The notes under the pieces are model-generated. The model had not been told where the DNA came from. It saw only the letters and a list, made by a program, of their open reading frames with translations, and made no database searches. Shown piece by piece: positions 25,671-64,000 of a DNA stretch of 64,000 nucleotides; within the stretch, counting starts at the first letter, position 1; each line of letters begins with the position of its first letter. The position numbers and the translations under genes were made by a program. The stretch comes from a virus. The stretch is from UHGV virus genome UHGV-0026213; one strand, given 5' to 3'.

Positions 25671-26396
25671 ATGTATAAATCCAACTGGAGAAACAAAATG
25701 TTTCGTATCTTCTTTCTTTTACTGGTAACACTTTTCGCGTTTAACGCACAGGCGTCAACGTCAACGCCACATTCTAAGCATCAGCGTGAGTTTGCACAAA
25801 TCCAACATCGGTTCGAAAAAGTCAGCCCGTTAATTGTGGAAATCTCACGAAAGCAGGGCGTTGATCCCAAGCTGATGATTACGCTGATTTATCGTGAATC
25901 GCGTTTTGATCCCAAGGCTTACAACAAAAGCTCACGAGCACATAGCCTGGTACAGATGCTTCCAAGTACCAAGCGTAATCTGCTAAAGCTTTATGGAAAA
26001 GAATTAGGTCTTAGTCAGAACGCTGATTTGTATAATCCGCGTAATGCTGTTTTGCTGGCTACCGCGTATGTTAAACATCTTGAGAAGGGGTTAACCAAAC
26101 GACTCAAACGCAAGCCCACCATGGCTGAAATTGCGTTAGCTTACCACTGGGGTGAAAGTGGCGCTCACACGCGAATCAAAAGCAAATCTCGAGCAGCACA
26201 ACGAGAAATGGCAGGCTTTATGAAAGACGCCGCGTTCTATAGCGCGAAAATCGATGTGCCTGTTGTTGTGGGCTCGGCCCCACGTCAGCTTGCGTTTGCG
26301 AAGAAAACACCACGTCAGATTCAACTGGCGGAAGTTAGTAGAATTTGGGATACGATAAACACGAGTTTTCCAATCAATAGAGGAGTTACCCTTTGA
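25671..26396 (+). CDS. Secreted lytic transglycosylase (SLT domain)
   Basis: Signal peptide MFRIFFLLLVTLFAFNAQA (probable true start at the internal ATG near 25698) and catalytic-region motif IYRESRFDPKAYNKSSRAHSLVQMLPST. Confidence 0.6.
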   Translation: MYKSNWRNKMFRIFFLLLVTLFAFNAQASTSTPHSKHQREFAQIQHRFEKVSPLIVEISRKQGVDPKLMITLIYRESRFDPKAYNKSSRAHSLVQMLPSTKRNLLKLYGKELGLSQNADLYNPRNAVLLATAYVKHLEKGLTKRLKRKPTMAEIALAYHWGESGAHTRIKSKSRAAQREMAGFMKDAAFYSAKIDVPVVVGSAPRQLAFAKKTPRQIQLAEVSRIWDTINTSFPINRGVTL

Positions 26397-26902
26397 GCAT
26401 CGTAGTAACCGATTGGTATAAAGGCATTACAAAAGCCGCACAATTGACCGCGAAAGACGTTTACAGTATCGTCCGAAGCAGTATCGAAGACGAGATTAAG
26501 TCGGATGAAGAATTCGCTGAGAAACACGAATTTTACGATGCTTTACCCACAGCATTCGGTGATGACGAAGAAGAAGGTTTAGAGTTTGACTGGAACGTCA
26601 ACCTTGCCTTGTTGTGGATTTGTGGTTTACGACCAACGGTAAAAGAAACCGAAGAAGGGAAAGTCTTGCTTTGGAATTTTACCGGGCAGTATAACCGTAA
26701 TTTAGTCTTTAAACAGGCGTATATGGACGCTACTGTAGAACTTCAAAATCTACTGCTTGGTGAAAACACATACTGCCAGCGTAGTTTTCTAACGATTCTG
26801 GAAAAACTTGTGTCGACACACAAGGTCTGGCGTAAAGAAGACGCCCCAGAACACATGTTCATTTTAGAGTACGCTGTCATTCCAAATCAGCCGTTCTTCT
26901 AA
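26393..26902 (+). CDS. Hypothetical acidic protein (169 aa)
   Basis: ORF followed by a terminator hairpin. Confidence 0.45.
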   Translation: MSIVVTDWYKGITKAAQLTAKDVYSIVRSSIEDEIKSDEEFAEKHEFYDALPTAFGDDEEEGLEFDWNVNLALLWICGLRPTVKETEEGKVLLWNFTGQYNRNLVFKQAYMDATVELQNLLLGENTYCQRSFLTILEKLVSTHKVWRKEDAPEHMFILEYAVIPNQPFF

Positions 26903-26968: not shown

Positions 26969-27448
26969 ATGATAAAGTTCATTTGGCGTTATCCAACGCG
27001 TTTTTGGTTTGTGGTACTTGAATTGTTTATGGTCCTTGTGGCGATTACTTTTGTCGAAGCGCCCGCCTCGCAGTTGGCTATTTTCTGCCTTTTCGTGACT
27101 GTCCCTGTATGGGTGATTGCGAAGGCTATTAAGTTCGTCATGGTGTGTTGGGCGAATTATACCTGTCCGTATAAACCTAAACAAATCATGAACTGGCTGA
27201 TGTATATTGAAGAACGTTTACCGGCGCAGCATAAATTACTGGGCTGGTCGTCAATGTTGGATATTGCGCTAGAAACCAATGCAAAGTTTCCCGGTGCGAA
27301 AAACCCTTATTTGTTGATGGCAGTAATTGTTGCACAACAAAAACTGGTAGGTGACCGTTGGTTGCCAGAAGAAGCGAAAGCGTATATCCGTAAACATCCA
27401 AAAGCTTTTTACTCGGTAGGACAATGGCGTAACTTGCCATTATTTTAA
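26969..27448 (+). CDS. Membrane protein (about 3 TM helices)
   Basis: SD AAAGGAG; hydrophobic segments FWFVVLELFMVLVAITFV and AIFCLFVTVPVWVIA. Confidence 0.5.
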   Translation: MIKFIWRYPTRFWFVVLELFMVLVAITFVEAPASQLAIFCLFVTVPVWVIAKAIKFVMVCWANYTCPYKPKQIMNWLMYIEERLPAQHKLLGWSSMLDIALETNAKFPGAKNPYLLMAVIVAQQKLVGDRWLPEEAKAYIRKHPKAFYSVGQWRNLPLF

Positions 27449-50224: not shown

Positions 50225-50544
50225 TGACTGTGAACGACAATATAAAGAAAAAGATTGACGAAATCATAAGCGTCAGTTTAGATAGAATCGAATTAATTCC
50301 CGAAACTAAGGAGATCAAATATTACGTTCCTGCGGACGAACTATTTCCAGGTCTTCTTAGAATCTCACCAAAAAAGGTTGAAGAGGCTAAACGGCAATTC
50401 GAAGTTCGTGGCCTTAAGGTTGACATTGTTAACAAAAAACATTTCCAAGTAACGTATAGTCAGGAAAACATTATATTTAGTCCTGAACAAGCGCAACGTA
50501 ATTTAGATATTTTAACGAAACGAATGGGGAATAATAACAAATGA
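50224..50544 (+). CDS. Hypothetical protein (106 aa)
   Basis: Start overlaps the upstream stop; its stop overlaps the thyA start. Confidence 0.4.
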   Translation: MTVNDNIKKKIDEIISVSLDRIELIPETKEIKYYVPADELFPGLLRISPKKVEEAKRQFEVRGLKVDIVNKKHFQVTYSQENIIFSPEQAQRNLDILTKRMGNNNK

Positions 50545-52076
50545 AACAGTATTTAGCGTTAATGCAAGACATTCTGGATAACGGTGTTGTCAAGAAAGAC
50601 CGCACAGGTGTAGGGACACTATCTGTATTTGGTCGTCAACTACGTTTTGACCTGAAAGAAGGTTTCCCATTAGTTACTACGAAGAAGGTTCACCTGAAAA
50701 GTATCATTCATGAACTGTTGTGGTTCTTAAACGGTGACACTAACGTGAAGTACCTGCAAGAGAACGGGGTAAAAATTTGGGATTCATGGAGGCGGCCATA
50801 CGTAGGTTTTACTGGTAAAGTCATTCGCATTCCACGATTGAAAAAAGAATACGTCCCTTTTAATGGAACTTTTCCTTTGGCCATTCCTAGTTTCGATTCA
50901 ATAGAAGATAAAAAATTGGCATACGCCTGGAAACGAATGATGCATCGCTGTTATGATAAAACAGCACATAACTACCGACATTATGGTGCAAAGGGTGTAA
51001 GCGTTGCTTTACGTTGGCACGACGTAACTAATTTTGTTAACGATGTTAAAAAACTGCAAAATTGGTTTTATAAAAGTAAGAACTGGAATGACTTCGAACT
51101 CGATAAAGATTATTACGGCTCCAATCAATATTGCCCCGACGGATGTGTATGGCTCAGTAGAGGAGAAAACGTCCATCATGCGTGGGTACGCATTATTAAA
51201 GGTGACGGAACACAATACATTTGCCGAACGTATAAACATGCATCCCAATTAACTGGTTTAAGCAAAACATCCATCCACAGATTCGTTAAGGAAGGCATTA
51301 CCCCACATCTTAAAGGAAATAACAGAATCAAAGGTGTAAAAAATTGGATTATGCAAAAAGCTACTACTGAAGACTACCTCTATCGCAACGAAATTAACGA
51401 CGACGGAGATTTAGGCCCAGTCTACGGTAAACAATGGCGAGATTGGGTAGGTCCAGACGGTCGCCACCACGACCAGATCAGCAAAGTTATCCAACAACTT
51501 CGTGAAGACCCTGACTCCCGCCGTATTATCGTTAGCGCCTGGAATGTAGGTGACCTGGACGATATGGCACTTAATCCATGCCACAACTATTTCCAATTCT
51601 ACACAACAGAAATGACGTTGCTTGAACGACTGGATTGGTACGAAGCAAATGAACCGGAAAAATTTGCGAACGCGCCACTTATTAATCACGAAGATATTGA
51701 TGATGAAGAACGACTTCATGAAACTTTAGATCGTGAAGGTATCCCTCGTCGTAAGCTTTCATGTTTTTACATGATGCGGAGCAACGATTACCTACTCGGC
51801 GCGCCATTTAACGTCGCTTCGTACGCGTTGTTAACTCACATGATTGCACAGCAGTTGAACATGGTTCCAGACGAGTTGGTTTATAGTGGTGTAGATGTTC
51901 ATCTTTACTCTAACCATCTGGAGCAGGCAAAACTACAACTTACTCGCGAACCTTACCCGCTACCTAAACTGGTTATCAAACGTAAACCTGATTCCATCTT
52001 CGATTACAAATACGAAGACTTCGAATTAGTTGGTTATCAATCGCACGACACAATTAAAGCTCCCATAGCTGTCTAA
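50541..52076 (+). CDS. thyA: Thymidylate synthase with two in-frame insertions (511 aa)
   Basis: N-terminus MKQYLALMQDILDNGVVKKDRTGVGTLSVFG, and GDLGPVYGKQWR, DSRRIIVSAWNVGDLDDMALNPCH, PFNVASYALLTHMIAQQ, PLPKLVIKRKPDSIFDY all align with ThyA; catalytic Cys retained. About 205 extra aa after IWDSW and about 46 extra aa after QFYTT. Confidence 0.85.
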   Translation: MKQYLALMQDILDNGVVKKDRTGVGTLSVFGRQLRFDLKEGFPLVTTKKVHLKSIIHELLWFLNGDTNVKYLQENGVKIWDSWRRPYVGFTGKVIRIPRLKKEYVPFNGTFPLAIPSFDSIEDKKLAYAWKRMMHRCYDKTAHNYRHYGAKGVSVALRWHDVTNFVNDVKKLQNWFYKSKNWNDFELDKDYYGSNQYCPDGCVWLSRGENVHHAWVRIIKGDGTQYICRTYKHASQLTGLSKTSIHRFVKEGITPHLKGNNRIKGVKNWIMQKATTEDYLYRNEINDDGDLGPVYGKQWRDWVGPDGRHHDQISKVIQQLREDPDSRRIIVSAWNVGDLDDMALNPCHNYFQFYTTEMTLLERLDWYEANEPEKFANAPLINHEDIDDEERLHETLDREGIPRRKLSCFYMMRSNDYLLGAPFNVASYALLTHMIAQQLNMVPDELVYSGVDVHLYSNHLEQAKLQLTREPYPLPKLVIKRKPDSIFDYKYEDFELVGYQSHDTIKAPIAV

Positions 52077-52884: not shown

Positions 52885-53028
52885 TCAGTGGGGTTAGTTC
52901 TATGGAAGAATTAGAGGCGGTTCCCTGTTACATTCCTAGAAGACGTGTTATAAAAGAATGTTACATCGATCGTATTTTGATCTCTCGTATCAAGAAAGGT
53001 CCAAGAAAACATCAAAACAAGAAGGTAT

Positions 53029-53062
53029 TTATTTATAAATACTTCGAAAAGGTTATAATCCG
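53029..53062 (+). promoter_or_regulatory. Sigma-70-like promoter candidate (TTTATA-N16-TATAAT)
   Basis: GGTATTTATTTATAAATACTTCGAAAAGGTTATAATCC about 40 nt upstream of the 53101 gene; also contains TATAAATA. Confidence 0.35.
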
Positions 53063-53100
53063 ACCTTACTGATTAAATTAACTCAGGGAGTAAATTCATT

Positions 53101-53490
53101 ATGTCAATCGATATCTACGTTTATTCATACTCAAAATCCGCTGTAAAAGAATCCGTGCGTCAGGCTTGGGAGCACCAATATTACGTCGATCATGTTGACG
53201 ACATACTCGGAGAAATATTCGATCAGGGTGAATTAATGTGGACGGAAAGGCTGTCGTTTTGTTGGAACGCATTTAACAAACTTAAATCCGAATTCAATAT
53301 AACGACGGTATGCGGTAGCAGTGAATTCGCAATCAATAAAGAACAACTCACCGCTTTTAAACAATATATTGAAGAATTGGATCAGCTCATTCCACGCGAT
53401 GAATGGAAACAGCGCGCGTTGGAAGAATTGCAAAAGCTAATCGAAACTTTCGATTTTGAAAGTAATTATCTCACTTTGCACACCGATTAA
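53101..53490 (+). CDS. Hypothetical protein (129 aa)
   Basis: SD GGGAG upstream. Confidence 0.45.
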   Translation: MSIDIYVYSYSKSAVKESVRQAWEHQYYVDHVDDILGEIFDQGELMWTERLSFCWNAFNKLKSEFNITTVCGSSEFAINKEQLTAFKQYIEELDQLIPRDEWKQRALEELQKLIETFDFESNYLTLHTD

Positions 53491-53498
53491 GGTGAACT

Positions 53499-53684
53499 AT
53501 GGGGGCTAATATGTTAGACGATGTTCTTAATTTCACGATAACGTATTTCGAGCCGAAGAAGTTCCGTACCATTGTTACACGTTGGTGCAAAGGGCCACGT
53601 AAAGGACGTAAACGTTTCCAAGTAATCCAATTTGATTATTCCAAGTTCCTTGAATCTAACCCATTCGAGAAGGAGGAACAATGA
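53499..53684 (+). CDS. Hypothetical small basic protein (61 aa)
   Basis: Short ORF; weak. Confidence 0.3.
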   Translation: MGANMLDDVLNFTITYFEPKKFRTIVTRWCKGPRKGRKRFQVIQFDYSKFLESNPFEKEEQ

Positions 53685-53906
53685 AGAAGCCATATTTTCA
53701 TAACCTCAGATTCTTTACAGGTACTCTATATTTTATTGGTTACAACCGTGTACGTAAGGGACCTGGTAAATCGAAAGTACGCACTGTGCAATATAAAAAG
53801 GCAATGACCGCGTCAGTTCCATTACGGATGGGCCTGCTTCTGTCTCACATTCGCCATCGTTAAATCAAAACTGTTAACACCTTTGTAAGAAATTTGGGAA
53901 CTAAAA

Positions 53907-54050
53907 TGACTGAAGAAGTTAAAGTAGAAACCGTTAAAGAAACTGATGAATTTGCAATCCCTGGGTTAGACCCGGAAGCAACCGTAGAGAAGGGAGCCGA
54001 CCCGACCACGGAAGACGATAACTGCTCAGGCGGGGCTTGCAAAATTTAAC
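53907..54050 (+). CDS. Small acidic protein (about 47 aa), below ORF-track size cutoff
   Basis: Hand-read ATG with upstream GGGAAC..AAA; MTEEVKVETVKETDEFAIPGLDPEATVEKGADPTTEDDNCSGGACKI; followed by hairpin GGGGTGCT..AGCACCCC and T-run. Coordinates approximate. Confidence 0.3.
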
Positions 54051-54118
54051 AGTTCCTGGGGTGCTTATGTAGCACCCCTAATCCTTATTCTTTTTGTTTA
54101 AACTAATGGAGTTTTAAA

Positions 54119-54952
54119 ATGGGCGAACGTTTTGACATCAACACTATTTACAACATCGTGGTTAATCCTGGTCAGCACCTGGAAGAAGTTAACGCACAAC
54201 TGCGCGCTCTGAATGAGAATGCAGTACAGTTCGATGCTATTTACACAATTGGTGTAAACCCTGGTACCAACCGTATTCGTGTAGAAGGTAAACGCCACAC
54301 CGGTAATCAAGAACTGGACATCGAAACAATTGTAGCACCTATTAAGCTTACCGATGCTGTTTACAACGGCACGGTAATGCATACAGAATCTGTTCTAGTT
54401 TGCACGATCGCAAAATGTGTAAAACTCGTTAAAGGTTGGTCTAAAGAACGTGGGATTCTCGATAACGGTAAACTGGAAACCCAAATCACGAAGTTCTTTG
54501 AAGAGTTAGGTGAAATTGCGGCGGGTATCAGTAAAAACAAACCTGAACTGATCATGGATGGTATTGGTGATGCGTTGGTGGTTCTGGTAAACATCATCGA
54601 ATTAGGGGATGCGTATTCTGGTCACCTTACAGTGGCAGAAGACTGCATCGAGTCTGGTCTACGCTTAAACGTGGAAGACGTAGCTGAAGTTGAAGAAAAT
54701 TTAAACAACGCTGGATACCCACATCAACAATACCTTCACGCTATTGAAAGTTTTGCCACAACCTTTATGGAAGGTAAAGATCATGGTTTCGATTTCGTTA
54801 GCCTGGGTTTAGCTCATCTTGCCCGTATCGCCTTGTATTACAAACTGGATATTCGCCATTGTTTCTCTTTGGCCTGGCACGAAATCAAAGACCGTAAAGG
54901 TTATCTGAACGCCGACGGTATCTTTGTAAAAGAAGCAGACCTGGCGAAATAA
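54119..54952 (+). CDS. MazG-like nucleoside triphosphate pyrophosphohydrolase (putative)
   Basis: QITKFFEELGEIAAGISKNKPELIMDGIGDALVVLVNIIELGD resembles the MazG EExxE...DxxGD helix pair. Confidence 0.5.
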   Translation: MGERFDINTIYNIVVNPGQHLEEVNAQLRALNENAVQFDAIYTIGVNPGTNRIRVEGKRHTGNQELDIETIVAPIKLTDAVYNGTVMHTESVLVCTIAKCVKLVKGWSKERGILDNGKLETQITKFFEELGEIAAGISKNKPELIMDGIGDALVVLVNIIELGDAYSGHLTVAEDCIESGLRLNVEDVAEVEENLNNAGYPHQQYLHAIESFATTFMEGKDHGFDFVSLGLAHLARIALYYKLDIRHCFSLAWHEIKDRKGYLNADGIFVKEADLAK

Positions 54953-54956
54953 ATAA

Positions 54957-55008
54957 AAGTACCTACCTCCGAAAGGAGGTAGGTAGACTTTCTTATTTTT
55001 TTCTTTTT
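54957..55008. terminator. Bidirectional terminator between the rightward block and the right-hand leftward structural genes
   Basis: CCTACCTCCGAAAGGAGGTAGG hairpin followed by a long T-run. Confidence 0.65.
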
Positions 55009-55572
55009 TTAAGCGCCTGGAACAATCCCAGAAGAGATATACGTCAAACCGTCAAGTTCAGTGACTTTAATCAACTTCGAAATATCCTTACCGTCGGACG
55101 GCAGCTCTGTTAAGTACACTTCCAGCCGCCCTGTCCACGCCAAAGACGTCCCATTCATGATAATGATGGTTTTATCTTTGCTGTCTGGTGCAGCTGTTGG
55201 GTTCTCAACTTCGTCGTCAGTAATCTGTAAATTGTACTTATTGCGGAAAAGCTGTAGTACCTCAGATACCGTAGCCGCATTAACACCCGCAACAGAAACT
55301 ACAAAGTCACCTAAGAGGTGCTCTAAATCCAAACGACGATAAATAACGTCAATTTTACCAAACGTTTTCTGTTCAATAATTCCCTGGACGCTAAGTTGGG
55401 TATTTAATCGCGTAAATTGGGTTTCTGGTGTTTCTACCGCAGGAATATGTGACGGTGTACCAAAATTCAACTTATCGATTGTAATACCTTTCTCTACCAA
55501 ACCAGGATTCTTTTTTACTAATAACTCGTAAACCAATTGTTTTCCTGATTTACCTAATAGCGTATTAGCCAT
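55009..55572 (-). CDS. Hypothetical virion-associated protein (187 aa)
   Basis: Minus-strand ORF directly downstream of the structural genes; no motif. Confidence 0.45.
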   Translation of the reverse strand: MANTLLGKSGKQLVYELLVKKNPGLVEKGITIDKLNFGTPSHIPAVETPETQFTRLNTQLSVQGIIEQKTFGKIDVIYRRLDLEHLLGDFVVSVAGVNAATVSEVLQLFRNKYNLQITDDEVENPTAAPDSKDKTIIIMNGTSLAWTGRLEVYLTELPSDGKDISKLIKVTELDGLTYISSGIVPGA

Positions 55573-55588
55573 TATTTCCTCTCAAACA

Positions 55589-57760
55589 TTAACGTGCTTG
55601 CGGCAAGAAGATGTTCGCGATCTGGCGTGCTGGAAGCACATCAAACGCAGAGTTGATAAAGCTGCCCTGTGACCATGCAGATGCCCAGTTCTGCGCCCAA
55701 ATGCTTCCTTGGATCTTGGCACGCTCTATACCGTTCGTACGTTCGTACAACGTCGCTGCGCCCAAACACGCCATAAACTCACTGAATTTATTATCGTCGT
55801 CCCAAACACCAGTGTCCGTAACGATGGGCATATACATCACACGGGACAAATCGCGGATGGTAACATTGATATCACATGACAGTGGAACAGAATCGCCTGG
55901 ACGCCAACCTAAACCACCAACACCGAATTGTAAAGACAAAGACGTTACGATAGCATTACGGAACGAGAATCGGCCTTGTGAGTAACATTCCAAATAAAAC
56001 GGATGGGTGAAAGATTGTTTGCCTGTCGCAATTGGGCATACTGCGGCGATCCAAAAGGACAACGGCACCAGAATTTCCTGGAAGATATCCAGGTCACTTC
56101 CCGACCACGCGCGTAAAGGTATTGTCAAGTTAATATCGTCACCCGAGGCATCTGAACTGTCCCACACCTCTGGGAAGTCGATGACGGATGAGTTATATAA
56201 CGACATAATCCCCGTTAAATGTAGCGTATCTGCTAACCCACGCATTACGGACTTAAAGCCTGTAATTAATGAATCGACCGCGTTGAAGCCGGTTTGCCCG
56301 CCGGACAAGTTTACTTCAAGTTGACGCGCTTTCGCCGTCATTGAGTTAACTGTACTAGAAATCTCCGGCTCTTTTGTGGAGTTAGAGAACGAACGAGAGA
56401 CGGTGTCCTTCCCATCAATTCTCCAGGTTACCCACTGAGAACCGTTGTAGATTTCGGACAGCGCCTGTGCTTTAATCCCTTCAATCTGTTCGCCAACCAC
56501 TTTAACAAAGTCGCCGAAGAACGTCTCCATGGTCGATTCTTTACCTTTATCCGCCCAGGACTGTATCGTATTCTGTTGTCCCTCGGTGAGGTTACTCGCA
56601 TCGGCATTTTCCAAATCCTCATTCATTTTGTTTTGGATTTCTGCCGCCTGCGCCTCTAGGTCGCTTGCCGTTCCTCCAGTTTGTAACCCGGAACTAAACG
56701 CATCGAGAACCCCCTTCTCCAGTTCATCAACGCTGTTAATATCTTTACCCGACGCGTCTTTCGCCGCATAACCGCCGCGTTCGGATGCGGCTAACCGTTC
56801 CATGTCTTGCAAAGAAACTTCGTAATTTCTCACATCGTCAGAATACGAAGACGCGCCATATGTGCTATCCAAATAGAAATTTCGTATCCGCTCGGCGAGA
56901 TCGTCGTCACTTGAGGACTGCTTACGAAGTTCTTTTAAACGCTGATTCTGATAGTTCGCCAAGGTTTGATAACGGTTGATCATCTTAAAGACATCGAATT
57001 CACCGTCTTTTTTCCAAACCTCCGGCAACGCTTCAAAAGCTTCATCACGTGCTTTTTTGTTCCCTTTTCCATCGCCGTCTTGACTAACCTGGAAGGTACC
57101 TAAGATACCCGTAGGAACCAAACGACGATAAACAAGCTGCGTATTCAAGATGTTCTGTACAGCACGCAAATACAGATGCATCGTCGGTTTAACGTAATAG
57201 TAACGCGACGTTTGCTTATTCAACGCTGCCGCGAGAATTCGGGGAGTAATTAAAATTACCGCAAAAGCAACAGTGCCTACAGTTGCCCATATCGCTGCCG
57301 CGCCGATATAACTTGCTATCGTGCGGATCATTCCAGGATAATCGCCCGTACGTGCTAAATACGCTAAGTTGGAATCGTACATATTCGCAAAGAACGCGGC
57401 CATACCCAGATATTTCGGCTTGCCGAAGCGACAATGTACGTAAAACGAATTTTGGTTAATGCTTTCGTAATAATACGTCCCTAAGCGATAAGAAGCGGTT
57501 GGCATACCGTTAGCCAACGCCTTTTTCTCCGCTTCACGATTACCGGGTCGTGCAAATGCCCCTGTTGATGGGGGGTCTGCAAACCACGTAAACTGCGGAG
57601 GGCTATTAATCGCTTTGCTACCGCCCATGGTCGTATCTTCAAAAGACATCATACCGTTAGAGTAGCGTCGCAAGGCCAGAAAACGTTCATCTCGGCCTTC
57701 CAACTCTCCCTTAAATAGATTTCTGACCCAGCTTGAGTCGTTAGCTGATCTAGCGTCCAC
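55589..57760 (-). CDS. Hypothetical structural protein (723 aa) downstream of the tape-measure-like gene
   Basis: GTG start with SD; one hydrophobic segment (IGAAAIWATVGTVAFAVILI). Function inferred from position only. Confidence 0.45.
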   Translation of the reverse strand: MDARSANDSSWVRNLFKGELEGRDERFLALRRYSNGMMSFEDTTMGGSKAINSPPQFTWFADPPSTGAFARPGNREAEKKALANGMPTASYRLGTYYYESINQNSFYVHCRFGKPKYLGMAAFFANMYDSNLAYLARTGDYPGMIRTIASYIGAAAIWATVGTVAFAVILITPRILAAALNKQTSRYYYVKPTMHLYLRAVQNILNTQLVYRRLVPTGILGTFQVSQDGDGKGNKKARDEAFEALPEVWKKDGEFDVFKMINRYQTLANYQNQRLKELRKQSSSDDDLAERIRNFYLDSTYGASSYSDDVRNYEVSLQDMERLAASERGGYAAKDASGKDINSVDELEKGVLDAFSSGLQTGGTASDLEAQAAEIQNKMNEDLENADASNLTEGQQNTIQSWADKGKESTMETFFGDFVKVVGEQIEGIKAQALSEIYNGSQWVTWRIDGKDTVSRSFSNSTKEPEISSTVNSMTAKARQLEVNLSGGQTGFNAVDSLITGFKSVMRGLADTLHLTGIMSLYNSSVIDFPEVWDSSDASGDDINLTIPLRAWSGSDLDIFQEILVPLSFWIAAVCPIATGKQSFTHPFYLECYSQGRFSFRNAIVTSLSLQFGVGGLGWRPGDSVPLSCDINVTIRDLSRVMYMPIVTDTGVWDDDNKFSEFMACLGAATLYERTNGIERAKIQGSIWAQNWASAWSQGSFINSAFDVLPARQIANIFLPQAR

Positions 57761-57764
57761 GTTA

Positions 57765-57805
57765 TACCTCTAAAAAACGGGGGTAGTTTCCTACCCCCTG
57801 TTGTT
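57765..57805 (-). terminator. Intrinsic terminator/attenuator after the tape-measure-like gene
   Basis: On the minus strand, GGGGGTAGGAAACTACCCCC hairpin followed by TTTTTT. Confidence 0.5.
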
Positions 57806-57806
57806 A

Positions 57807-60800
57807 TTACGCTGATTTACGACTAACGTCGAGTTGCGGCGCGGGTTGAGTTATTGACACGTTACGTGACGCCGAACCCGGAGCGGTTGACGCCGGGTTA
57901 GCCGGTCCGTTTTGCATAGCCTGTGGCCGCTGACGAAGAATTGTTACAATCTCTTTCAGATAGCCTGCAGACTCTTTTGCAACCGCCAGCTGTTGTACGC
58001 TGATCGGATCACCGCTGTTCACTGTGGAACCGGTCTGAGCATCGGAAGTCACCGTTGGTGCAGGACGGGCTGATTTCTCCAGCTGCTGTCTAGCACCTTC
58101 TTTTACTTTAGCAACATCCTCTTCGGCCAGGCCATCAGCACGTGCATTTTGACCCACCGTTTCTACAACAACTGACGCATCACTCGGTGTAACGTCACCA
58201 CCAGGGCTCGGCACAGCCGGACCACCGCCCGTCGCAGCTTTAATGTCATCAGCCCCCATTGCACCTTTGTCTGCTAAAGCGGAGTCACGATTCGCCTCGT
58301 TCGCGGCTGGCAGGTTATCTGCCGGGCCAGAAATAGACGGATCGTTAGCAGCGCCCGCAGCGATGGCTGGGGATGACGGCATTGGCGTTACGCCTGTCGT
58401 CAAGTCTTTCAGCGATGCCTGGTTAGCCGCGATCGCGTTTGTTCCTACAGCACCAATCTTACCACCCATGATGTTGAGCACTTCATCCAAACTACGCAAT
58501 TTTCCATTCTTGTAGAAAATTGTGCTGTTTGCCGCGATTTGATCGGCCGACGCACCACGCGACGATGGCCCGTTCGGATCACGCTTCCATTCTTGCAGGA
58601 ATTTCTTACCGCCACCTTGTCCTAAGAAGTGGTAGAGGTAAACAGCTGCACCTGGAGGATCGATACCACCTAAATCCTTTCTGGCTTTCTCGATATTATC
58701 ACGAATATGACGGACGCCAAGCAGAGCATTCGCCCACGGGTCATACTGGTTGGTTTGCGGGATACCATAACGTCTCGCATAAGCTTTCATCTGCGCACCC
58801 CAGGTATCGTTGATGAACTGGAACAAGCCAGCCGCAGAACTTCCTTTAGCTTTGATACCGTATCTAAGCCCAGATTCTGCTTGTGCCATTCCCAGTGCTA
58901 ACGCTGGAGGAACACCCATCATCTTCGCTACGTCTGTAATCAGTGCTGCAACCGCATTCAAGTTAGGCTTCAATCCGTCACCCAACGTTGAAATTGGATA
59001 CTTAGCCGCTAACGTTTTATAGTCACCGTCTTGCATATCGCCAAGTTTCACGCCGAAGTTACCGGTAGTAAATGCAGCGTAATTCTTAGCTCCCATCTGA
59101 CCGTAAGCACCGGCCAAATCGTTTGGTGTGCCGTAATTCCCACCGTCGTTTGCCGCTGGTTGCAATAGGTCACGATAAGAGGAGGAGGTGTTCATCTGTG
59201 GTCGAGACGGTTGCTCCTTCTCATCGTCAGTCAAGAACATCTGAGTCGCGCGATCTTTTCGCTGCCAGTTCACACGGAAACCCGCAGAAGGCGTAGCACG
59301 CAGCGTTTTACGTACTGCCAAATCAGCTTCCTTAGACAGTTCTTTCAGGTTCTCTAACTCCGTTGCAACTGAACCGGCGTCGGTGTTAGCGTCTCCCCCT
59401 AACGGGTTAAACGGTACCTCCCACACTGACTGACGAATACCCCCTTTCAGGTTGTATGCACCACGCATCATCAGTGCGATTTCATACAAGAACCCACCCG
59501 TAACACGTAGGTCCATCGGATCGGCAGCAGGAACATAACGTTTTACCCCAACGATGTACGTCATGAAGACAGGTAAGAAGCGGTTATAGAACCAGTTCTT
59601 GTACCGATCTTCTTTTGGTCCACCAATGGCGTCGGGCGCAATCACCGCAATCGCACGTTTCCAGTCGCCTTTATACGTACAACTTTTCACATCGGTGTCT
59701 TGCAACACTTGACGTTCCAAGAGCGTATAGAGGTTACGGGTTGTTTGAGTAATACTCACCGCACCATAAGCTTTCAACCTTACGGACTCCAAATCACGGA
59801 GATCGGTTTCTTTAGGTAAACTTCTCCAGTCGACTTGAACCTGAACTTGTTCGGTGCCGTCTTCCCAACCTTCGACTTTCGCAACTTCTTTGTTGCGTTC
59901 CGCATCCGCTTGAGCCAACGCTTGGGTCGATTCTGCCACAGAAGCAACTTTGTGTCCTTCGGCCACACCGCCTGTAGCATTTACATCCTTACGTTTTTCA
60001 TCACGACGCATGTTAATCGAACGAAGCACGCGTTCTTGCGCTTCAACGACTTCTTCGCCTGACAAAAACTCGGCCGGGGTAAACGTTACGAAATCCCACG
60101 CTTTAGAGAACCAACCTTGGTTAACCTTGCGGGGATCTTCTAATGCACGGAATGCAGGCGCATCTTTCGACATCTTCATTTTGTTGAAGATGTTCAGCAT
60201 GTCCGCTTTCGACACTTTCGCTGGATTACCGACGTCTGCTAACGCGATATCGTTATCCATAGATTTCAGTGCCGTAATCCAACGTAAGTAAATGGGCACA
60301 AAACGTTGTAGCATAAACGCACTAAACGCCAGCATTTCGCCTTTGTCTTCTACGTTAGTACCAAACCCTTCGGCCAGTTTCTTCACGTCGTCACCGGACA
60401 AACCACGCAACTGTGCTTGGCCATTCTCTGTATAAGAGATGTACGGTTTCAAGTTGTCTTCTAAATAACGTGCTTTTGCGCCATCGTCGGAAGACCATTC
60501 GTCGTGATCTCTAAATCCGTACTGTGCCAATCGCATGTTATCCAGATACTGGGCATTTACACGGGTTGCCGTTTTATACGCAAACCAAGACAACGCAGCG
60601 CCTGCAGCGACCAAACCGATGATCGGCCAGCCAACCGCAGTTACCACTGCAGATGCCGCTGTCGCGACAGCACTCACCGCAGGGACAGCCAAACGGGTCA
60701 CAGCAAACTTACCAACGTTCCACAACGCTTTACCTGCAAACCCAACCGGCTTAAAGATTCCCCATTTTGCAACTTTACCTAAGATTGAACCCACTGTGCC

Positions 60801-63800
60801 TAAAATACTCACAATCGGCCCTACTAACGGTAGCCCTTTAAGGAAATCCATTACCCCGCGTTTGCCGCCTTTCTTCTCAGCCTCTTTCTTAGCCTTTTCC
60901 TCTTCCTTAGAACGACGACGGCGTCGGAAGAACTGGAAGTAATCGCGTTTTTCATCACTGGCAGGCGGCTTGTTACGTTGACCGAACTTACTGAACATGG
61001 TTCTTAACAAACCATCCGAAGCACCTGCTTTTTCCGCAGAATCACGCATGGTGTTAAACCATGACATTTCTTGAAGATTAACCATTCGGTTCAGGCGTTC
61101 CAGTAAAGCCGACCCAACGCTACGGGCTTTCTGTTTCCCTTTATTAATCACACGTCCAGCGCTATCCGTTACGGTGTCTAAGTCTTCTTTTGCCGCATCG
61201 ATGATACGTGTTTTAGACACCTTGCCTCTTGCGTAGATGTGTTGACGATAAAACTCAGCAACATCGTCATCGCGTCCTGCTAAACGACTCTCCATTCGAT
61301 AACGTGTTCCAATGTCGTAACGCGGATCACGGAAGGTATCGACCATATCGCTTGCACGGCCACGGAAACGGTCAAACCAATCACGTGCTGCACCACCCCA
61401 ACGAGAAAGACGACCACCTACCGCACTACGGTAACGGGACATTCTGTCACGCATCCGACCACGCCAATCCCGGAACCCTTGAAAATGTTCACGGAACCCA
61501 TCGCGTATGTCCTTAGCACGTTGGAATAATCCTTTAACTGAACTGGCCCCCGTATTCCGCTCCATCTGTTCTGTCCAGGTGTCATCTTCAGGTTCACCTG
61601 GCAATCTCCGGTTAAGGAGTTTGTAGATACGGATTAGGATGTGGTTAGTTTTACGGCCATTCGACCACGAGAACACACTAAACCCACCACCAGAGCCCCC
61701 TTCCTTACGGTTCTGCCACCAACGTGTCAACGGATTATCAGAAGCCAACTCTTTGAGCTTCTCAAACCCACGTTTTGCATTGTTCCACAGACGAGCTGGC
61801 ATTCCCGTTACGCGGGAAATCATGCTTTGTAAACGGGTTTTCTCTGCGCCCTCTGGAACCTCATTTAACCACTCGCGTGCTTTCTCGAACAACGAAGCCG
61901 CTTTAGGCGAAATGAAACCCAGAAGTTTCTTCGGTAAAGTCACAGCTTTGTTTACCGCCGTTCCTGCTTTCCCAGAAATGTACTGGAAAAGCGCTTGAAC
62001 TTTACCGCCTTTGTAGAAGCGCAGTTTACCTGCGGCAGCCAAATCAGCAGCCGCTAAGATTAAATTACCCGCTTCGTCGACGATGTCACGTCCCAGTTTA
62101 ATATCGTCGAGAGTTTTAAGTTGAATCAGCTTCTCAGTTTTCGGGTCAGCCTGGTAATATTCCCCAGCCTCTAAACGACTTCCTTGTAATACGACGTTAC
62201 CACGTTCATCGTAGATGTCGCGAACGCCTAAAACACCTTTACCGAAAGCTACGGCAGAATTCCAACCCGTCGATAATGTACCTGTTACTAACCCTTTCAG
62301 TCGGCTAAATACGCCGGGACCTTCGGAGGAACCGCCTGAGAATTTCCCACGAATAAAACCACCTAATGCTTGTAGGCGATCTTTCCCGCGCAGGAACAGA
62401 TTCTTACCAAACCGTCCTACACCAGAACCGGTATCCCAAAGCACCCCAGCCCAGCGACGTAACAAACCTGTCTCGCCTAGTACAACACGTTTGCGCTTAC
62501 GACGACGTTTACGGCCTGATTCACCCGAACTTTCAGGTTCGTCACCGTCATCACGACTACCGCCTAAACTGGCTAGAAGAATACCTTCCTCATCCATGTT
62601 CTTAACGTGTTTGAGGATATCTTGCACTGTGCTAGATTCGGGCTGTTTACGTACAGCATCAATCAAACGGTCGAATTGTTGCTCCAATCCGGCGTTCGTG
62701 TCTGGACGACTGCTTAAAAGTTCAACAAAGTTAGTGGATTTCTCTCCATAAAGTACCGCAGCGAGTTGGCGTGCGCTTAAACCGCGACCACGACCTCCTT
62801 TTCCACCGCCACGTACATTGGACAGTTCTTTGTCTTCAAAGCTCGGCTCTGCGCCTGCACCCATCCGACGCAAGTAATCACCCAGCGCAGAACCGTTCTG
62901 CAATTTACGCTGAATCTCTTGCTCACGGGTTAACGAACGTCCAGAGCGGGTCTTACCCATCGACAGGTCATTAAATAACGTATAGGGATCGTTAATGTCC
63001 TTATCGACCTCGAAAATGTCTTTCTTCGCATCGTATTTAAAAATACCGGAATCACGAAGTGCATTCTCGCCGTAAATCACAGACGCAGCATCAACAGTGT
63101 CCTGACGTGCGCGAATCGTTGACTGGATAGCGGCGATTTTGTTTGAAATCGCGTTGCTCAGTTCATGGTGTCCACCAACCAGTTCCGCAGAACGGGCTTC
63201 TAAAACACCCTGAATCGCTTCCACAGCGTTTGCGTTCATGTACCGATACATGTGCATCGGGTCTTTCAATAAAGACCCTACGTCGAACGCTTTCCCTTCT
63301 GAGGCACGAGATTCGATGTAGTCCGCTAATGCTTGACGTGTTTTATTATCGAGCGTTTTATCTTTATCGATAAAGTCGACAGTGTCGTTGATGTAAGTCT
63401 GTAAACGTTTACGCTGATCGTCATTAGCGACCGCTTTACGGACACGATTACCAATAACTTTACGATCCACCATACCGCGCGTGGTCAGGTCATAAACCTG
63501 ATCGTGGTGTTCACCATATCCCCGACGAATAGATTTGTTAATCTCGGACAGTAACGTCGGAATAACTTCAGTGATACTAAGGTAAGCTTTACGATCGAAT
63601 TTCGCCGCCGCAGAAAGAGATTCCGCAGAGCGATCGTCTAATGCTAACGTTTCGCGACGTAGCGGGTTAACCAATCCCACGTCGTTCAACAGGCGGAAAA
63701 AGTCGGCTAACCATCCGCTCGACTCCCCCGCAATAGCTGAGTTAGAAAGTGACGATTTATTACTAACGATGTAATTCAGCTTTTCCAACCGCTTCATTAC

Positions 63801-63983
63801 TTCTGGATTTTTCTCTAACTCGCCACGAGTCCAGTTTTGGAGACGCTCGATCTGGGGTTGTAAGAACCGTTTTGCTAACCAACCACCGGCAAACCCTGCC
63901 GCTTTATTACGCGAGTTTGTGTTACGACGGTCAGGGGACAAAGATGAGCTGTCCGACATGCCAAAGTCATCTTCCTGAGCCAT
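57807..63983 (-). CDS. Tape-measure-like giant virion protein with internal lytic transglycosylase domain (2058 aa)
   Basis: Central hydrophobic/Gly-Ala-rich segments (LPLVGPIVSILGTVGSILG..., AVPAVSAVATAASAVVTAVGWPIIGLVAAGAALSWFAY), Arg/Trp-rich repeats, and an SLT motif (GMAQAESGLRYG...AAGLFQFINDTW) in the C-terminal third. Confidence 0.6.
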   Translation of the reverse strand: MAQEDDFGMSDSSSLSPDRRNTNSRNKAAGFAGGWLAKRFLQPQIERLQNWTRGELEKNPEVMKRLEKLNYIVSNKSSLSNSAIAGESSGWLADFFRLLNDVGLVNPLRRETLALDDRSAESLSAAAKFDRKAYLSITEVIPTLLSEINKSIRRGYGEHHDQVYDLTTRGMVDRKVIGNRVRKAVANDDQRKRLQTYINDTVDFIDKDKTLDNKTRQALADYIESRASEGKAFDVGSLLKDPMHMYRYMNANAVEAIQGVLEARSAELVGGHHELSNAISNKIAAIQSTIRARQDTVDAASVIYGENALRDSGIFKYDAKKDIFEVDKDINDPYTLFNDLSMGKTRSGRSLTREQEIQRKLQNGSALGDYLRRMGAGAEPSFEDKELSNVRGGGKGGRGRGLSARQLAAVLYGEKSTNFVELLSSRPDTNAGLEQQFDRLIDAVRKQPESSTVQDILKHVKNMDEEGILLASLGGSRDDGDEPESSGESGRKRRRKRKRVVLGETGLLRRWAGVLWDTGSGVGRFGKNLFLRGKDRLQALGGFIRGKFSGGSSEGPGVFSRLKGLVTGTLSTGWNSAVAFGKGVLGVRDIYDERGNVVLQGSRLEAGEYYQADPKTEKLIQLKTLDDIKLGRDIVDEAGNLILAAADLAAAGKLRFYKGGKVQALFQYISGKAGTAVNKAVTLPKKLLGFISPKAASLFEKAREWLNEVPEGAEKTRLQSMISRVTGMPARLWNNAKRGFEKLKELASDNPLTRWWQNRKEGGSGGGFSVFSWSNGRKTNHILIRIYKLLNRRLPGEPEDDTWTEQMERNTGASSVKGLFQRAKDIRDGFREHFQGFRDWRGRMRDRMSRYRSAVGGRLSRWGGAARDWFDRFRGRASDMVDTFRDPRYDIGTRYRMESRLAGRDDDVAEFYRQHIYARGKVSKTRIIDAAKEDLDTVTDSAGRVINKGKQKARSVGSALLERLNRMVNLQEMSWFNTMRDSAEKAGASDGLLRTMFSKFGQRNKPPASDEKRDYFQFFRRRRRSKEEEKAKKEAEKKGGKRGVMDFLKGLPLVGPIVSILGTVGSILGKVAKWGIFKPVGFAGKALWNVGKFAVTRLAVPAVSAVATAASAVVTAVGWPIIGLVAAGAALSWFAYKTATRVNAQYLDNMRLAQYGFRDHDEWSSDDGAKARYLEDNLKPYISYTENGQAQLRGLSGDDVKKLAEGFGTNVEDKGEMLAFSAFMLQRFVPIYLRWITALKSMDNDIALADVGNPAKVSKADMLNIFNKMKMSKDAPAFRALEDPRKVNQGWFSKAWDFVTFTPAEFLSGEEVVEAQERVLRSINMRRDEKRKDVNATGGVAEGHKVASVAESTQALAQADAERNKEVAKVEGWEDGTEQVQVQVDWRSLPKETDLRDLESVRLKAYGAVSITQTTRNLYTLLERQVLQDTDVKSCTYKGDWKRAIAVIAPDAIGGPKEDRYKNWFYNRFLPVFMTYIVGVKRYVPAADPMDLRVTGGFLYEIALMMRGAYNLKGGIRQSVWEVPFNPLGGDANTDAGSVATELENLKELSKEADLAVRKTLRATPSAGFRVNWQRKDRATQMFLTDDEKEQPSRPQMNTSSSYRDLLQPAANDGGNYGTPNDLAGAYGQMGAKNYAAFTTGNFGVKLGDMQDGDYKTLAAKYPISTLGDGLKPNLNAVAALITDVAKMMGVPPALALGMAQAESGLRYGIKAKGSSAAGLFQFINDTWGAQMKAYARRYGIPQTNQYDPWANALLGVRHIRDNIEKARKDLGGIDPPGAAVYLYHFLGQGGGKKFLQEWKRDPNGPSSRGASADQIAANSTIFYKNGKLRSLDEVLNIMGGKIGAVGTNAIAANQASLKDLTTGVTPMPSSPAIAAGAANDPSISGPADNLPAANEANRDSALADKGAMGADDIKAATGGGPAVPSPGGDVTPSDASVVVETVGQNARADGLAEEDVAKVKEGARQQLEKSARPAPTVTSDAQTGSTVNSGDPISVQQLAVAKESAGYLKEIVTILRQRPQAMQNGPANPASTAPGSASRNVSITQPAPQLDVSRKSA

Positions 63984-64000
63984 CCCTAGAACTTGTTCTA

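What the first reader, a model, noticed from the sequence alone, without database searches (positions are those of the whole stretch)
57807..63983. 2058-aa tape-measure-like protein carrying a lytic transglycosylase domain
The protein's size and hydrophobic/Gly-rich segments are typical of tape measure or inner tail proteins, and it includes an SLT catalytic motif (AQAESGLRYG, GLFQF) located roughly at 58450-58950. This implies a very long tail or a large ejected protein that digests peptidoglycan during entry. A second, separately encoded secreted SLT enzyme at 25671 suggests one acts in entry and one in lysis.
Basis: partly seen in the sequence, partly recalled or inferred. Interest (0 to 1): 0.45.

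Follow-up and report, generated by a model that had tools for sequence, protein, structure and literature searches.

The report
Jumbo-phage tail tape-measure protein with lysin
This is the gene, cut off by the window edge, for the giant tail-internal protein that phiKZ/SPN3US-type jumbo phages are thought to use both to set tail length and to digest the cell wall during infection; it is an ordinary new member of a known family.

The parts
57807..64000 (-). 3' 6.2 kb of the giant gene (window-encoded residues 317-2374 of a 2374-aa protein; stop codon at 57807-57809). The 5' 0.95 kb lies outside the window.
   Evidence: PHROG 3201 E=0. 57% identity over the full length to Seoulvirus and Erwinia jumbo-phage homologues.
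62859..63866 (-). Mostly alpha-helical N-terminal region (window-ORF aa 40-375), moderately confident in the model and nearly invariant in length among homologues.
   Evidence: AF2 model m2ecac140365c, pLDDT about 70-90. Homologues hold 363-398 residues in this block.
62229..62852 (-). Gly-rich, basic, predicted-disordered region (aa 378-585) that includes the run RKRRRKRKR at aa 491.
   Evidence: pLDDT below 50; composition; basic run.
61944..62228 (-). Small beta-hairpin module (aa 586-680) with two copies of the motif D(I/V)xDxxGN.
   Evidence: AF2 strands with pLDDT 80-90; motifs at aa 589 and 633.
60879..61649 (-). Second helical, Arg-rich region (aa 779-1035). It is one of the two places where homologues differ in length.
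   Evidence: homologues hold 218-353 residues in this block.
60579..60857 (-). Two hydrophobic, Gly/Ala-rich segments (aa 1043-1072 and 1098-1135), candidate membrane-inserting helices.
   Evidence: Kyte-Doolittle above 1.5 over 19 residues. Equivalent segments occur in SPAsTU and Goslar gp204, and a weaker one in phiKZ gp181.
59325..60557 (-). Family-specific all-alpha 'mid' domain (aa 1143-1553) made of two homologous sub-domains, with motifs RLxxYG ... RF(I/V)P(I/V)(Y/F). Its function is unknown.
   Evidence: AF2 pLDDT about 90. No PDB hit attributable to it. hhalign of sub-domain A against B gives probability 97.9%, E 3.8e-13. 344 representative proteins carry it, nearly all 2000-2700 aa long. 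This is the part that aligns with phiKZ gp181.
59118..59324 (-). Predicted disordered linker (aa 1554-1622).
   Evidence: pLDDT 30-48.
58449..58952 (-). Lytic transglycosylase (SLT, gp144-like) catalytic domain (aa 1678-1845); catalytic Glu1703 at nt 58875-58877.
57810..58448 (-). Ala/Pro/Gly-rich C-terminal tail (aa 1846-2058) with three predicted helices and a conserved extreme C-terminus.
   Evidence: Homologues hold 181-256 residues here. A near-invariant Arg lies 4 residues from the end.
57779..57798 (-). Terminator-like GC hairpin followed by a T-run, 9 nt after the stop codon.
   Evidence: Consensus scan only; function not tested.
55589..57760 (-). Downstream gene (723 aa), a homologue of the phiKZ gp182 'spacer' ring, the Goslar gp203 tail-tube-initiator-complex protein and SPN3US gp238 (an essential tail protein).
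   Evidence: phmmer to PDB chains 11lx_H (E 7.8e-58) and 9xqs_K (E 9e-52); PMC13250141; the Goslar preprint; PMC5105663.
55009..55572 (-). Next gene (187 aa), a DUF7941 protein of the family proposed to form baseplate-anchored filaments in Goslar.
   Evidence: Pfam PF25613 E 2.1e-23; the Goslar preprint.

Best explanation
The feature is the window-truncated gene for the giant tail-internal protein of a phiKZ/SPN3US-type jumbo myophage; the full protein is 2374 aa and 262 kDa. It is the orthologue of SPN3US gp239 and a distant homologue of phiKZ gp181 and Goslar gp204. The proposed mechanism follows. A few copies are built into the tail on the baseplate hub, next to the gp182-like spacer ring encoded by the adjacent gene. 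The roughly 1350-residue, largely helical or extended N-terminal part runs up the tube lumen and limits tube polymerisation to about 200 nm. On sheath contraction the protein is expelled ahead of the DNA. In the periplasm its gp144-like SLT domain cuts peptidoglycan locally, and the two hydrophobic segments insert into the inner membrane to help form the DNA and protein conduit. What is shown here: orthology, synteny, the SLT fold with an intact catalytic Glu, the domain architecture, and the length conservation. What is shown in the literature for orthologues: virion and tail location, essentiality, and muralytic activity of the phiKZ gp181 domain. What is inferred: the ruler role, the lumen location, ejection and membrane insertion.
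For: Orthology: PHROG 3201 E=0; 57% identity over 100% of the window ORF to Seoulvirus and Erwinia jumbo phages, and 25.8% over aa 1147-1843 to phiKZ gp181; 59-60% over the full 2374 aa to SPAsTU and Stratton proteins.
Synteny: the order vRNAP subunit (opposite strand), giant gene, gp182-like gene is the same in this contig, SPAsTU, phiKZ and Goslar. The downstream protein matches the solved tail-tube-initiator/spacer chains 11lx_H and 9xqs_K. This arrangement recalls the adjacent T4 genes 29, 48 and 54 (own knowledge).
Length constraint: 61 homologues down to about 23% identity measure 2199-2571 aa. In 81 representatives at 50% identity or less, the mid domain starts at median residue 1413 (5-95%: 1285-1680). 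At 1.5 A per residue that is 193-252 nm, against the 200-nm phiKZ tail (PMC13250141).
Hydrophobic segments are present and the lytic module is swappable: GH19 in Goslar gp204 and P0041, glucosaminidase plus VanY in P0114. Both are features of lysin-bearing tape measure proteins such as P1 Sit (PMC9024508).
Literature: SPN3US gp239 is called the tape measure protein and is lost in tailless mutants. phiKZ orf181 is essential and 'likely the tape measure'. The gp181 lytic domain is active (Briers 2008, cited through PMC5380687).
Against: No member of the family has been shown to set tail length or has been located in the tube lumen. Neither the phiKZ structural atlas nor the Goslar structure models or mentions it.
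The AF2 model of window aa 1-1135 is only 50% helix. Its longest helix is 42 residues and 42% of residues have pLDDT below 50, so it is not an obvious continuous coiled coil.
About 1000 residues (mid domain, SLT and C-terminal tail) are predicted to be globular or otherwise outside the candidate ruler. If folded, they would fit poorly in a tube lumen about 4 nm wide (lumen width from own knowledge).
The whole chain at 1.5 A per residue would span 356 nm, far more than 200 nm.
Goslar has more tail layers than phiKZ (47 against 44), yet its N-terminal region before the hydrophobic segments is shorter (1254 against 1296 aa). Simple proportionality is therefore not seen with these two data points.
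No chaperone gene pair of the frameshifted kind lies upstream.
Confidence: 0.7

Rival explanations
1. It is a tail- or hub-resident ejected lysin and channel former, but not the length ruler. It sits in the hub cavity or lower tube and is delivered at infection to digest peptidoglycan and breach the inner membrane. Tail length would be set by something else.
For: The mid and SLT domains are confidently predicted to be globular. The N-terminal part is not a clean coiled coil. There is no length proportionality between phiKZ and Goslar. The protein is unmodelled in both atlases, so its position is unknown.
Against: No other tape-measure candidate has been reported among the 40 modelled phiKZ proteins or the 28 modelled Goslar proteins. 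Total length and the position of the mid domain are tightly conserved across very divergent homologues, which a pure enzyme or cargo would not need. The gene sits next to the tube-initiator/spacer gene.
Confidence: 0.2
2. It is an external baseplate component: the cell-puncturing needle proposed for phiKZ gp181 in 2008, or a tail fibre as GenBank and PHROG annotate it.
For: The label 'tail fiber protein' appears in many GenBank records and in PHROG 3201. The review PMC5380687 lists gp181 as a 'needle-like cell-puncturing device'.
Against: The phiKZ atlas assigns the spike, tip and hub to gp164, gp163.1 and gp101, and the fibres to gp131-family proteins. Goslar assigns them to gp13 and gp48. 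The AF2 models are alpha-rich, with no beta-helix, fibre or receptor-binding domain. The internal hydrophobic segments do not suit a fibre.
Confidence: 0.04
3. It is a head-packaged internal virion (ejection) protein, analogous to T7 gp16.
For: The SLT domain gives tblastn hits to T7-like 'internal virion protein D' and internal core proteins at 34-36% identity over about 200 aa. The protein is large and has hydrophobic segments.
Against: The similarity is confined to the SLT domain. SPN3US gp239 is absent from tailless, head-only particles and depleted in a tail-tube mutant.
Confidence: 0.03

Closest known systems
Salmonella phage SPN3US gp239 and its Seoulvirus and Erwinia-phage orthologues (e.g. 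SPAsTU AWN09113, 2377 aa)
   Same: Full-length collinear homology at 57-60% identity; the same length within 3 aa; the same flanking genes; the same SLT module and hydrophobic segments.
   Different: About 40% of the sequence differs. DNA similarity is detectable only in patches. The source is an uncultured phage known only from metagenome contigs.
Pseudomonas phage phiKZ gp181 (2237 aa, tail-associated peptidoglycan hydrolase)
   Same: The same order of modules, the same neighbours (gp180 vRNAP subunit and gp182 spacer), and a gp144-type SLT domain near the C-terminus.
   Different: Only 25.8% identity, restricted to the mid and SLT region. The N-terminal 1300 aa is not alignable by BLAST. 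Its hydrophobic segment is weaker.
Escherichia phage Goslar gp204 (2252 aa)
   Same: The same locus, between the vRNAP subunit gp205 and the tube-initiator-complex protein gp203; the same size class; a hydrophobic pair at residues 1255-1338.
   Different: It carries a GH19/COG3179-type lysin where this protein has SLT.
Phage P1 Sit (1140-aa myophage tape measure protein with an SLT domain)
   Same: The same design: a long N-terminal region matched to tail length, followed by an SLT domain (PMC9024508).
   Different: It is half the size and has no mid domain. No sequence comparison was run here. The resemblance is functional and is not membership.
phiKZ gp144 endolysin (PDB 3bkh; also a neck component in 9xps)
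   Different: gp144 is a 260-aa stand-alone enzyme with an N-terminal peptidoglycan-binding domain. Here the domain is embedded at residues 1994-2161 of a 2374-aa protein.

Membership tests
gp181/gp239 giant tail protein family of phiKZ-like jumbo phages (PHROG 3201) | Collinear full-length sequence homology | tested here: met
   PHROG 3201 E=0. tblastn covers 100% of the query at 57% identity. Full-length hits at 59-60% identity.
gp181/gp239 giant tail protein family of phiKZ-like jumbo phages (PHROG 3201) | Conserved locus: divergent from a virion RNAP subunit gene and immediately upstream of the gp182-like spacer/tube-initiator gene | tested here: met
gp181/gp239 giant tail protein family of phiKZ-like jumbo phages (PHROG 3201) | Family-specific mid domain followed by a lytic module about 200 aa from the C-terminus | tested here: met
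   Segment lengths among homologues: mid 500-586, lytic 162-185, tail 181-256 residues. The mid domain occurs in 344 representatives, nearly all of this size class.
gp181/gp239 giant tail protein family of phiKZ-like jumbo phages (PHROG 3201) | Present in the virion tail | not testable with these tools
   Known only for orthologues, from SPN3US proteomics.
Tail tape measure proteins (functional class) | Protein length determines tail length | not testable with these tools
   Indirect evidence only. Length is conserved. The phiKZ-Goslar comparison does not show proportionality.
Tail tape measure proteins (functional class) | Long, predominantly alpha-helical extended region | tested here: inconclusive
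   In the AF2 monomer model of window aa 1-1135, 50% of residues are helix, the longest helix is 42 residues and 42% of residues have pLDDT below 50.
Tail tape measure proteins (functional class) | Gene lies among tail-tube and baseplate-hub genes | tested here: met
   It is adjacent to the gp182/gp203-like gene.
Tail tape measure proteins (functional class) | Resides in the tail-tube lumen | not testable with these tools
   It is not modelled in the phiKZ or Goslar structures.
Family-1 lytic transglycosylase (Pfam SLT PF01464, gp144-like) | Profile match above the curated threshold | tested here: met
   30.1 bits against a cut-off of 21.3. E 3e-19 to gp144.
Family-1 lytic transglycosylase (Pfam SLT PF01464, gp144-like) | Catalytic Glu in the E-S motif | tested here: met
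   E1703 in AQAES aligns with the Glu of ASIES in gp144 and is conserved in 59/59 homologues.
Family-1 lytic transglycosylase (Pfam SLT PF01464, gp144-like) | Lysozyme-like SLT fold | tested here: met
Family-1 lytic transglycosylase (Pfam SLT PF01464, gp144-like) | Muralytic activity | not testable with these tools
   Shown for the phiKZ gp181 domain only (Briers 2008, cited through PMC5380687).
T7 gp16-like internal virion proteins | Homology beyond the SLT domain, and a location inside the head | tested here: not met
   Podophage hits cover only aa 1654-1858. The orthologue is lost from tailless heads.
Tail fibre proteins (the database label) | Fibrous or beta-rich shaft and a receptor-binding domain | tested here: not met
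   The models are alpha-rich with 5% strand. There are no fibre domains in Pfam.

The most novel reading that the evidence does not exclude
The hydrophobic pair together with the duplicated, family-specific mid domain could be a chimallivirus-specific membrane device. This domain has no counterpart among solved structures and occurs only in these giant proteins. After ejection it might remodel the inner membrane and seed or gate the lipid-bounded early-infection vesicle into which these phages inject their DNA. On that reading the protein would be more than a ruler with a lysin attached.
Probability: 0.1. Interest if true: 0.65.

Novelty: new member of a known kind. Interest (0 to 1): 0.2.

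Why it matters
It matters mainly for annotation. The gene should be called a gp181/gp239-family tail tape-measure-like protein with an SLT domain. It should not be called a 'tail fiber', and it should not be given as 2058 aa.

Three smaller points go beyond annotation:
- The family's most conserved part is a duplicated all-alpha module of unknown function with no solved structural counterpart.
- The lytic module is swapped among relatives: SLT, GH19, or glucosaminidase plus VanY.
- This essential 260-kDa protein is still missing from both 2026 cryo-EM atlases of chimalliviruses. Its location, its ruler role and its fate at infection therefore remain open and can be tested experimentally.

Tried and rejected
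- NCBIfam scan of the full protein found no family.
- Pfam scan of the N-terminal 353 aa found nothing.
- Foldseek search of the N-terminal model against the PDB found nothing better than E 1.3. The model is too weak (mean pLDDT 59) to draw any conclusion.
- A self-BLAST of the full protein for tandem repeats gave none at the single-sequence level. Only profile comparison exposed the mid-domain duplication.
- The attempt to test the ruler idea with phiKZ (44 layers) against Goslar (47 layers) showed no proportionality and is too small a sample to decide.
- A search for gp181 or gp204 in the phiKZ atlas, the Goslar preprint, the chimallivirus core-genome paper and the jumbo-phage review found no mention.
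- PDB sequence search with phiKZ gp181 itself found only gp144 and phi6 P5, so gp181 is in no deposited structure.
- The 'tail fibre', 'puncturing needle' and 'T7 gp16-like' readings were considered and rejected, as set out under the rival explanations.
Full report
OBSERVATION. A minus-strand open reading frame runs from an ATG at 63983 to a stop at 57807-57809. The frame does not begin at that ATG. The remaining in-frame codons up to the window edge (E-Q-V-L-G) contain no stop, and they align with the interior of homologous proteins. A look-up of the neighbouring 187-aa protein found a 224,967-bp ENA metagenome contig (ERZ27287186 k141_659670). That contig is 100% identical to window 53001-64000 over 11,000 bp and carries the gene as 2374 codons. 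The window therefore holds residues 317-2374, and '2058 aa' is an edge artefact. The complete protein is 262 kDa with pI 9.4 and one Cys. Pfam SLT covers aa 1683-1769 of the window ORF (30.1 bits against a cut-off of 21.3). The gp144-like domain covers aa 1678-1845, which is nt 58449-58952, and the catalytic Glu of AQAES lies at nt 58875-58877.

WHAT IT IS. PHROG 3201 matches with E=0. tblastn against 50,697 phage records gives 57% identity over 100% of the query to Seoulvirus (SPN3US-like) Salmonella phages and to Erwinia jumbo phages. Identity falls to 35-44% for further Erwinia jumbo phages. It is about 25% over aa 1147-1843 for phiKZ gp181 and its relatives in Pseudomonas, Serratia, Ralstonia, Xanthomonas and Vibrio jumbo phages. 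Every listed hit that extends beyond the SLT domain lies in a record of 212-312 kb. DNA similarity to any deposited phage is patchy, at 72-77% over less than 11% of the gene. The source is therefore an uncultured, genus-level relative of SPN3US.

The locus is conserved. In this contig, SPAsTU, phiKZ and Goslar the giant gene diverges from a virion RNA polymerase subunit gene and is followed by a 660-720-aa gene. In the window that downstream gene is 55589-57760. Its product matches solved chains named 'tail tube initiator complex protein gp203' (11lx_H, E 7.8e-58) and PHIKZ182 (9xqs_K, E 9e-52). In the phiKZ atlas gp182 is the hexameric spacer ring between the tube initiator and the hub. The next gene (55009-55572) encodes a DUF7941 protein, a family proposed to form baseplate-anchored filaments in Goslar. 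A terminator-like hairpin follows the giant gene's stop codon, at 57798-57779.

ANATOMY. All positions here are window-ORF residues; add 316 for the full protein.
- The first 316 residues lie outside the window. They contain the family's most conserved linear motif, ALEAIVKNTALPDYAKEEFSEI.
- Residues 40-375 are mostly helical, with pLDDT 70-90.
- Residues 378-585 are Gly-rich, basic and predicted to be disordered, and include RKRRRKRKR.
- Residues 586-680 form a small beta-hairpin module with two D(I/V)xDxxGN motifs.
- Residues 779-1035 are helical and Arg-rich.
- Residues 1043-1072 and 1098-1135 are two hydrophobic Gly/Ala-rich segments. They are also present in SPAsTU and Goslar gp204 and are weaker in phiKZ gp181.
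- Residues 1143-1553 form an all-alpha domain predicted with pLDDT about 90.
- Residues 1554-1622 are a disordered linker.
- The SLT domain follows, with pLDDT above 90.
- The last 213 residues are an Ala/Pro/Gly-rich tail with three helices and a conserved extreme C-terminus.

The mid domain gave no PDB match of its own. Profile-profile comparison shows it is an internal duplication. Sub-domain A aligns with sub-domain B at probability 97.9% and E 3.8e-13, sharing the motifs RLxxYG and RF(I/V)P(I/V)(Y/F). An exhaustive phmmer search of 1.84 billion representatives found the domain in 344 proteins. Nearly all are 2000-2700 aa long, and the domain starts at median residue 1413 (5-95%: 1285-1680).

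The lytic module is interchangeable across the family. Goslar gp204 and P0041 carry GH19, and P0114 carries a glucosaminidase plus VanY. Length differences among homologues are concentrated in two blocks, aa 681-778 and 779-1042. The first roughly 690 residues are nearly invariant in length.

HOW IT MOST LIKELY WORKS. Published work on orthologues supplies what cannot be computed.
- SPN3US gp239 (259 kDa) is detected in virions. It is missing from tailless particles and depleted in a tail-tube mutant, and its authors call it the tail tape measure protein (PMC5105663, PMC5694885, PMC10052503).
- The lytic domain of phiKZ gp181 is active (Briers 2008, cited through PMC5380687).
- The older idea that gp181 is the cell-puncturing needle is not borne out. 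The phiKZ atlas assigns the spike, tip and hub to gp164, gp163.1 and gp101.

I therefore favour, at about 0.7, a protein that is both a tape measure and a virion-associated lysin, analogous in design to P1 Sit (PMC9024508). In this model the N-terminal roughly 1350 residues span the roughly 200-nm tube: 1285-1680 residues at 1.5 A each give 193-252 nm. The C-terminal modules sit towards the hub. After contraction the protein is expelled, the SLT domain opens the peptidoglycan and the hydrophobic pair enters the inner membrane. Only the architecture, fold, homology and length conservation are shown here. Lumen location, ruler function, ejection and membrane insertion are inferred.

EVIDENCE AGAINST, AND RIVALS. 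Neither 2026 structure models or mentions the protein, and phiKZ gp181 is in no PDB entry. The AF2 model of the N-terminal part is only 50% helix, with a longest helix of 42 residues and 42% low-confidence residues. About 1000 residues are globular or lie outside the candidate ruler. Goslar has more tail layers than phiKZ (47 against 44) but a slightly shorter N-terminal region (1254 against 1296 aa). The main rival is therefore an ejected lysin and channel protein that does not measure the tail, which I put at about 0.2. The readings as a tail fibre or needle (about 0.04) and as a T7 gp16-like head protein (about 0.03) are contradicted by the structural assignments, the alpha-rich models and the tailless-mutant proteomics.

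THE SECOND SLT. The 241-aa protein at 25671-26396 is a genuine SLT enzyme, with Pfam E 8.8e-15 and its best PDB matches to MltC, gp144 and MltE. It has a single N-terminal hydrophobic segment that looks like a signal peptide or a signal-anchor-release sequence. It shares only 26% identity with the giant protein's SLT domain. A 159-aa protein with a 55-residue hydrophobic stretch lies two genes downstream, at 26969-27448. A lysis role is plausible but was not tested.

NOVELTY AND VERDICT. Interest is low, at 0.2. The points worth keeping are the corrected gene model, the duplicated mid domain of unknown function, the lysin-module swapping, and the fact that this essential giant protein remains structurally unplaced in chimalliviruses.

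Noticed in passing
window 50541-52076 (+): The thymidylate synthase ORF is 511 aa. The related contigs L003 and L005 have 344 aa. The window version carries an in-frame insertion or replacement of about 200 aa after 'ENGVKIW'. In L004 the same gene is split by a GIY-YIG/NUMOD3/I-TevI-like ORF. This looks like a hot spot for an intron, homing endonuclease or intein in thyA.
   Followed up: partly
window 25671-26396 (+) and 26969-27448 (+): The stand-alone 241-aa SLT enzyme has a signal-peptide or SAR-like N-terminus. Two genes downstream is a 159-aa protein with a 55-residue hydrophobic stretch (aa 8-62). Together they are a possible endolysin and holin pair. The gene between them (26393-26902) overlaps the SLT gene by 4 nt and has no known function.
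   Followed up: partly
window 55009-55572 (-): A 187-aa DUF7941 protein lies immediately downstream of the gp182-like gene. The 2026 Goslar preprint proposes that this family forms long baseplate-anchored filaments for host recognition.
   Followed up: partly
window 1684-5892 (-) and 5903-10225 (-): Two adjacent giant ORFs (1402 and 1440 aa) match PHROG 'virion structural protein' families 8078 and 7557. They cross-hit each other's families and share an N-terminal phrog_2163-like region, so they look like paralogous tail or baseplate proteins.
   Followed up: no
window 54960-54985 (both strands): A perfect 11-bp-stem hairpin with T-runs on both sides lies between the convergent DUF7941 gene and a MazG-like gene (54119-54952). 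It is a likely bidirectional terminator.
   Followed up: no
homologues outside the window: L008 1718-8476 (Goslar gp204); proteins P0041 and P0114: In the same giant-protein scaffold the lytic module is exchanged. Goslar gp204 and P0041 have GH19 chitinase-like lysozyme, and P0114 has glucosaminidase plus a VanY peptidase, where this protein has SLT.
   Followed up: partly
whole window; L002: Window bases 53001-64000 are 100% identical to ENA metagenome contig ERZ27287186 k141_659670 (224,967 bp). Variants at 91-96% identity occur in several other metagenome assemblies. No deposited phage genome is close at the DNA level.
   Followed up: partly
PDB entry 9xps chain S (phiKZ), not in the window: The phiKZ endolysin gp144, the closest solved relative of the SLT domain here, is itself a structural neck component in the 2026 phiKZ atlas: six copies wedge the whisker collar to the sheath. 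'Endolysin' and 'virion lysin' are therefore not cleanly separate roles in these phages.
   Followed up: no
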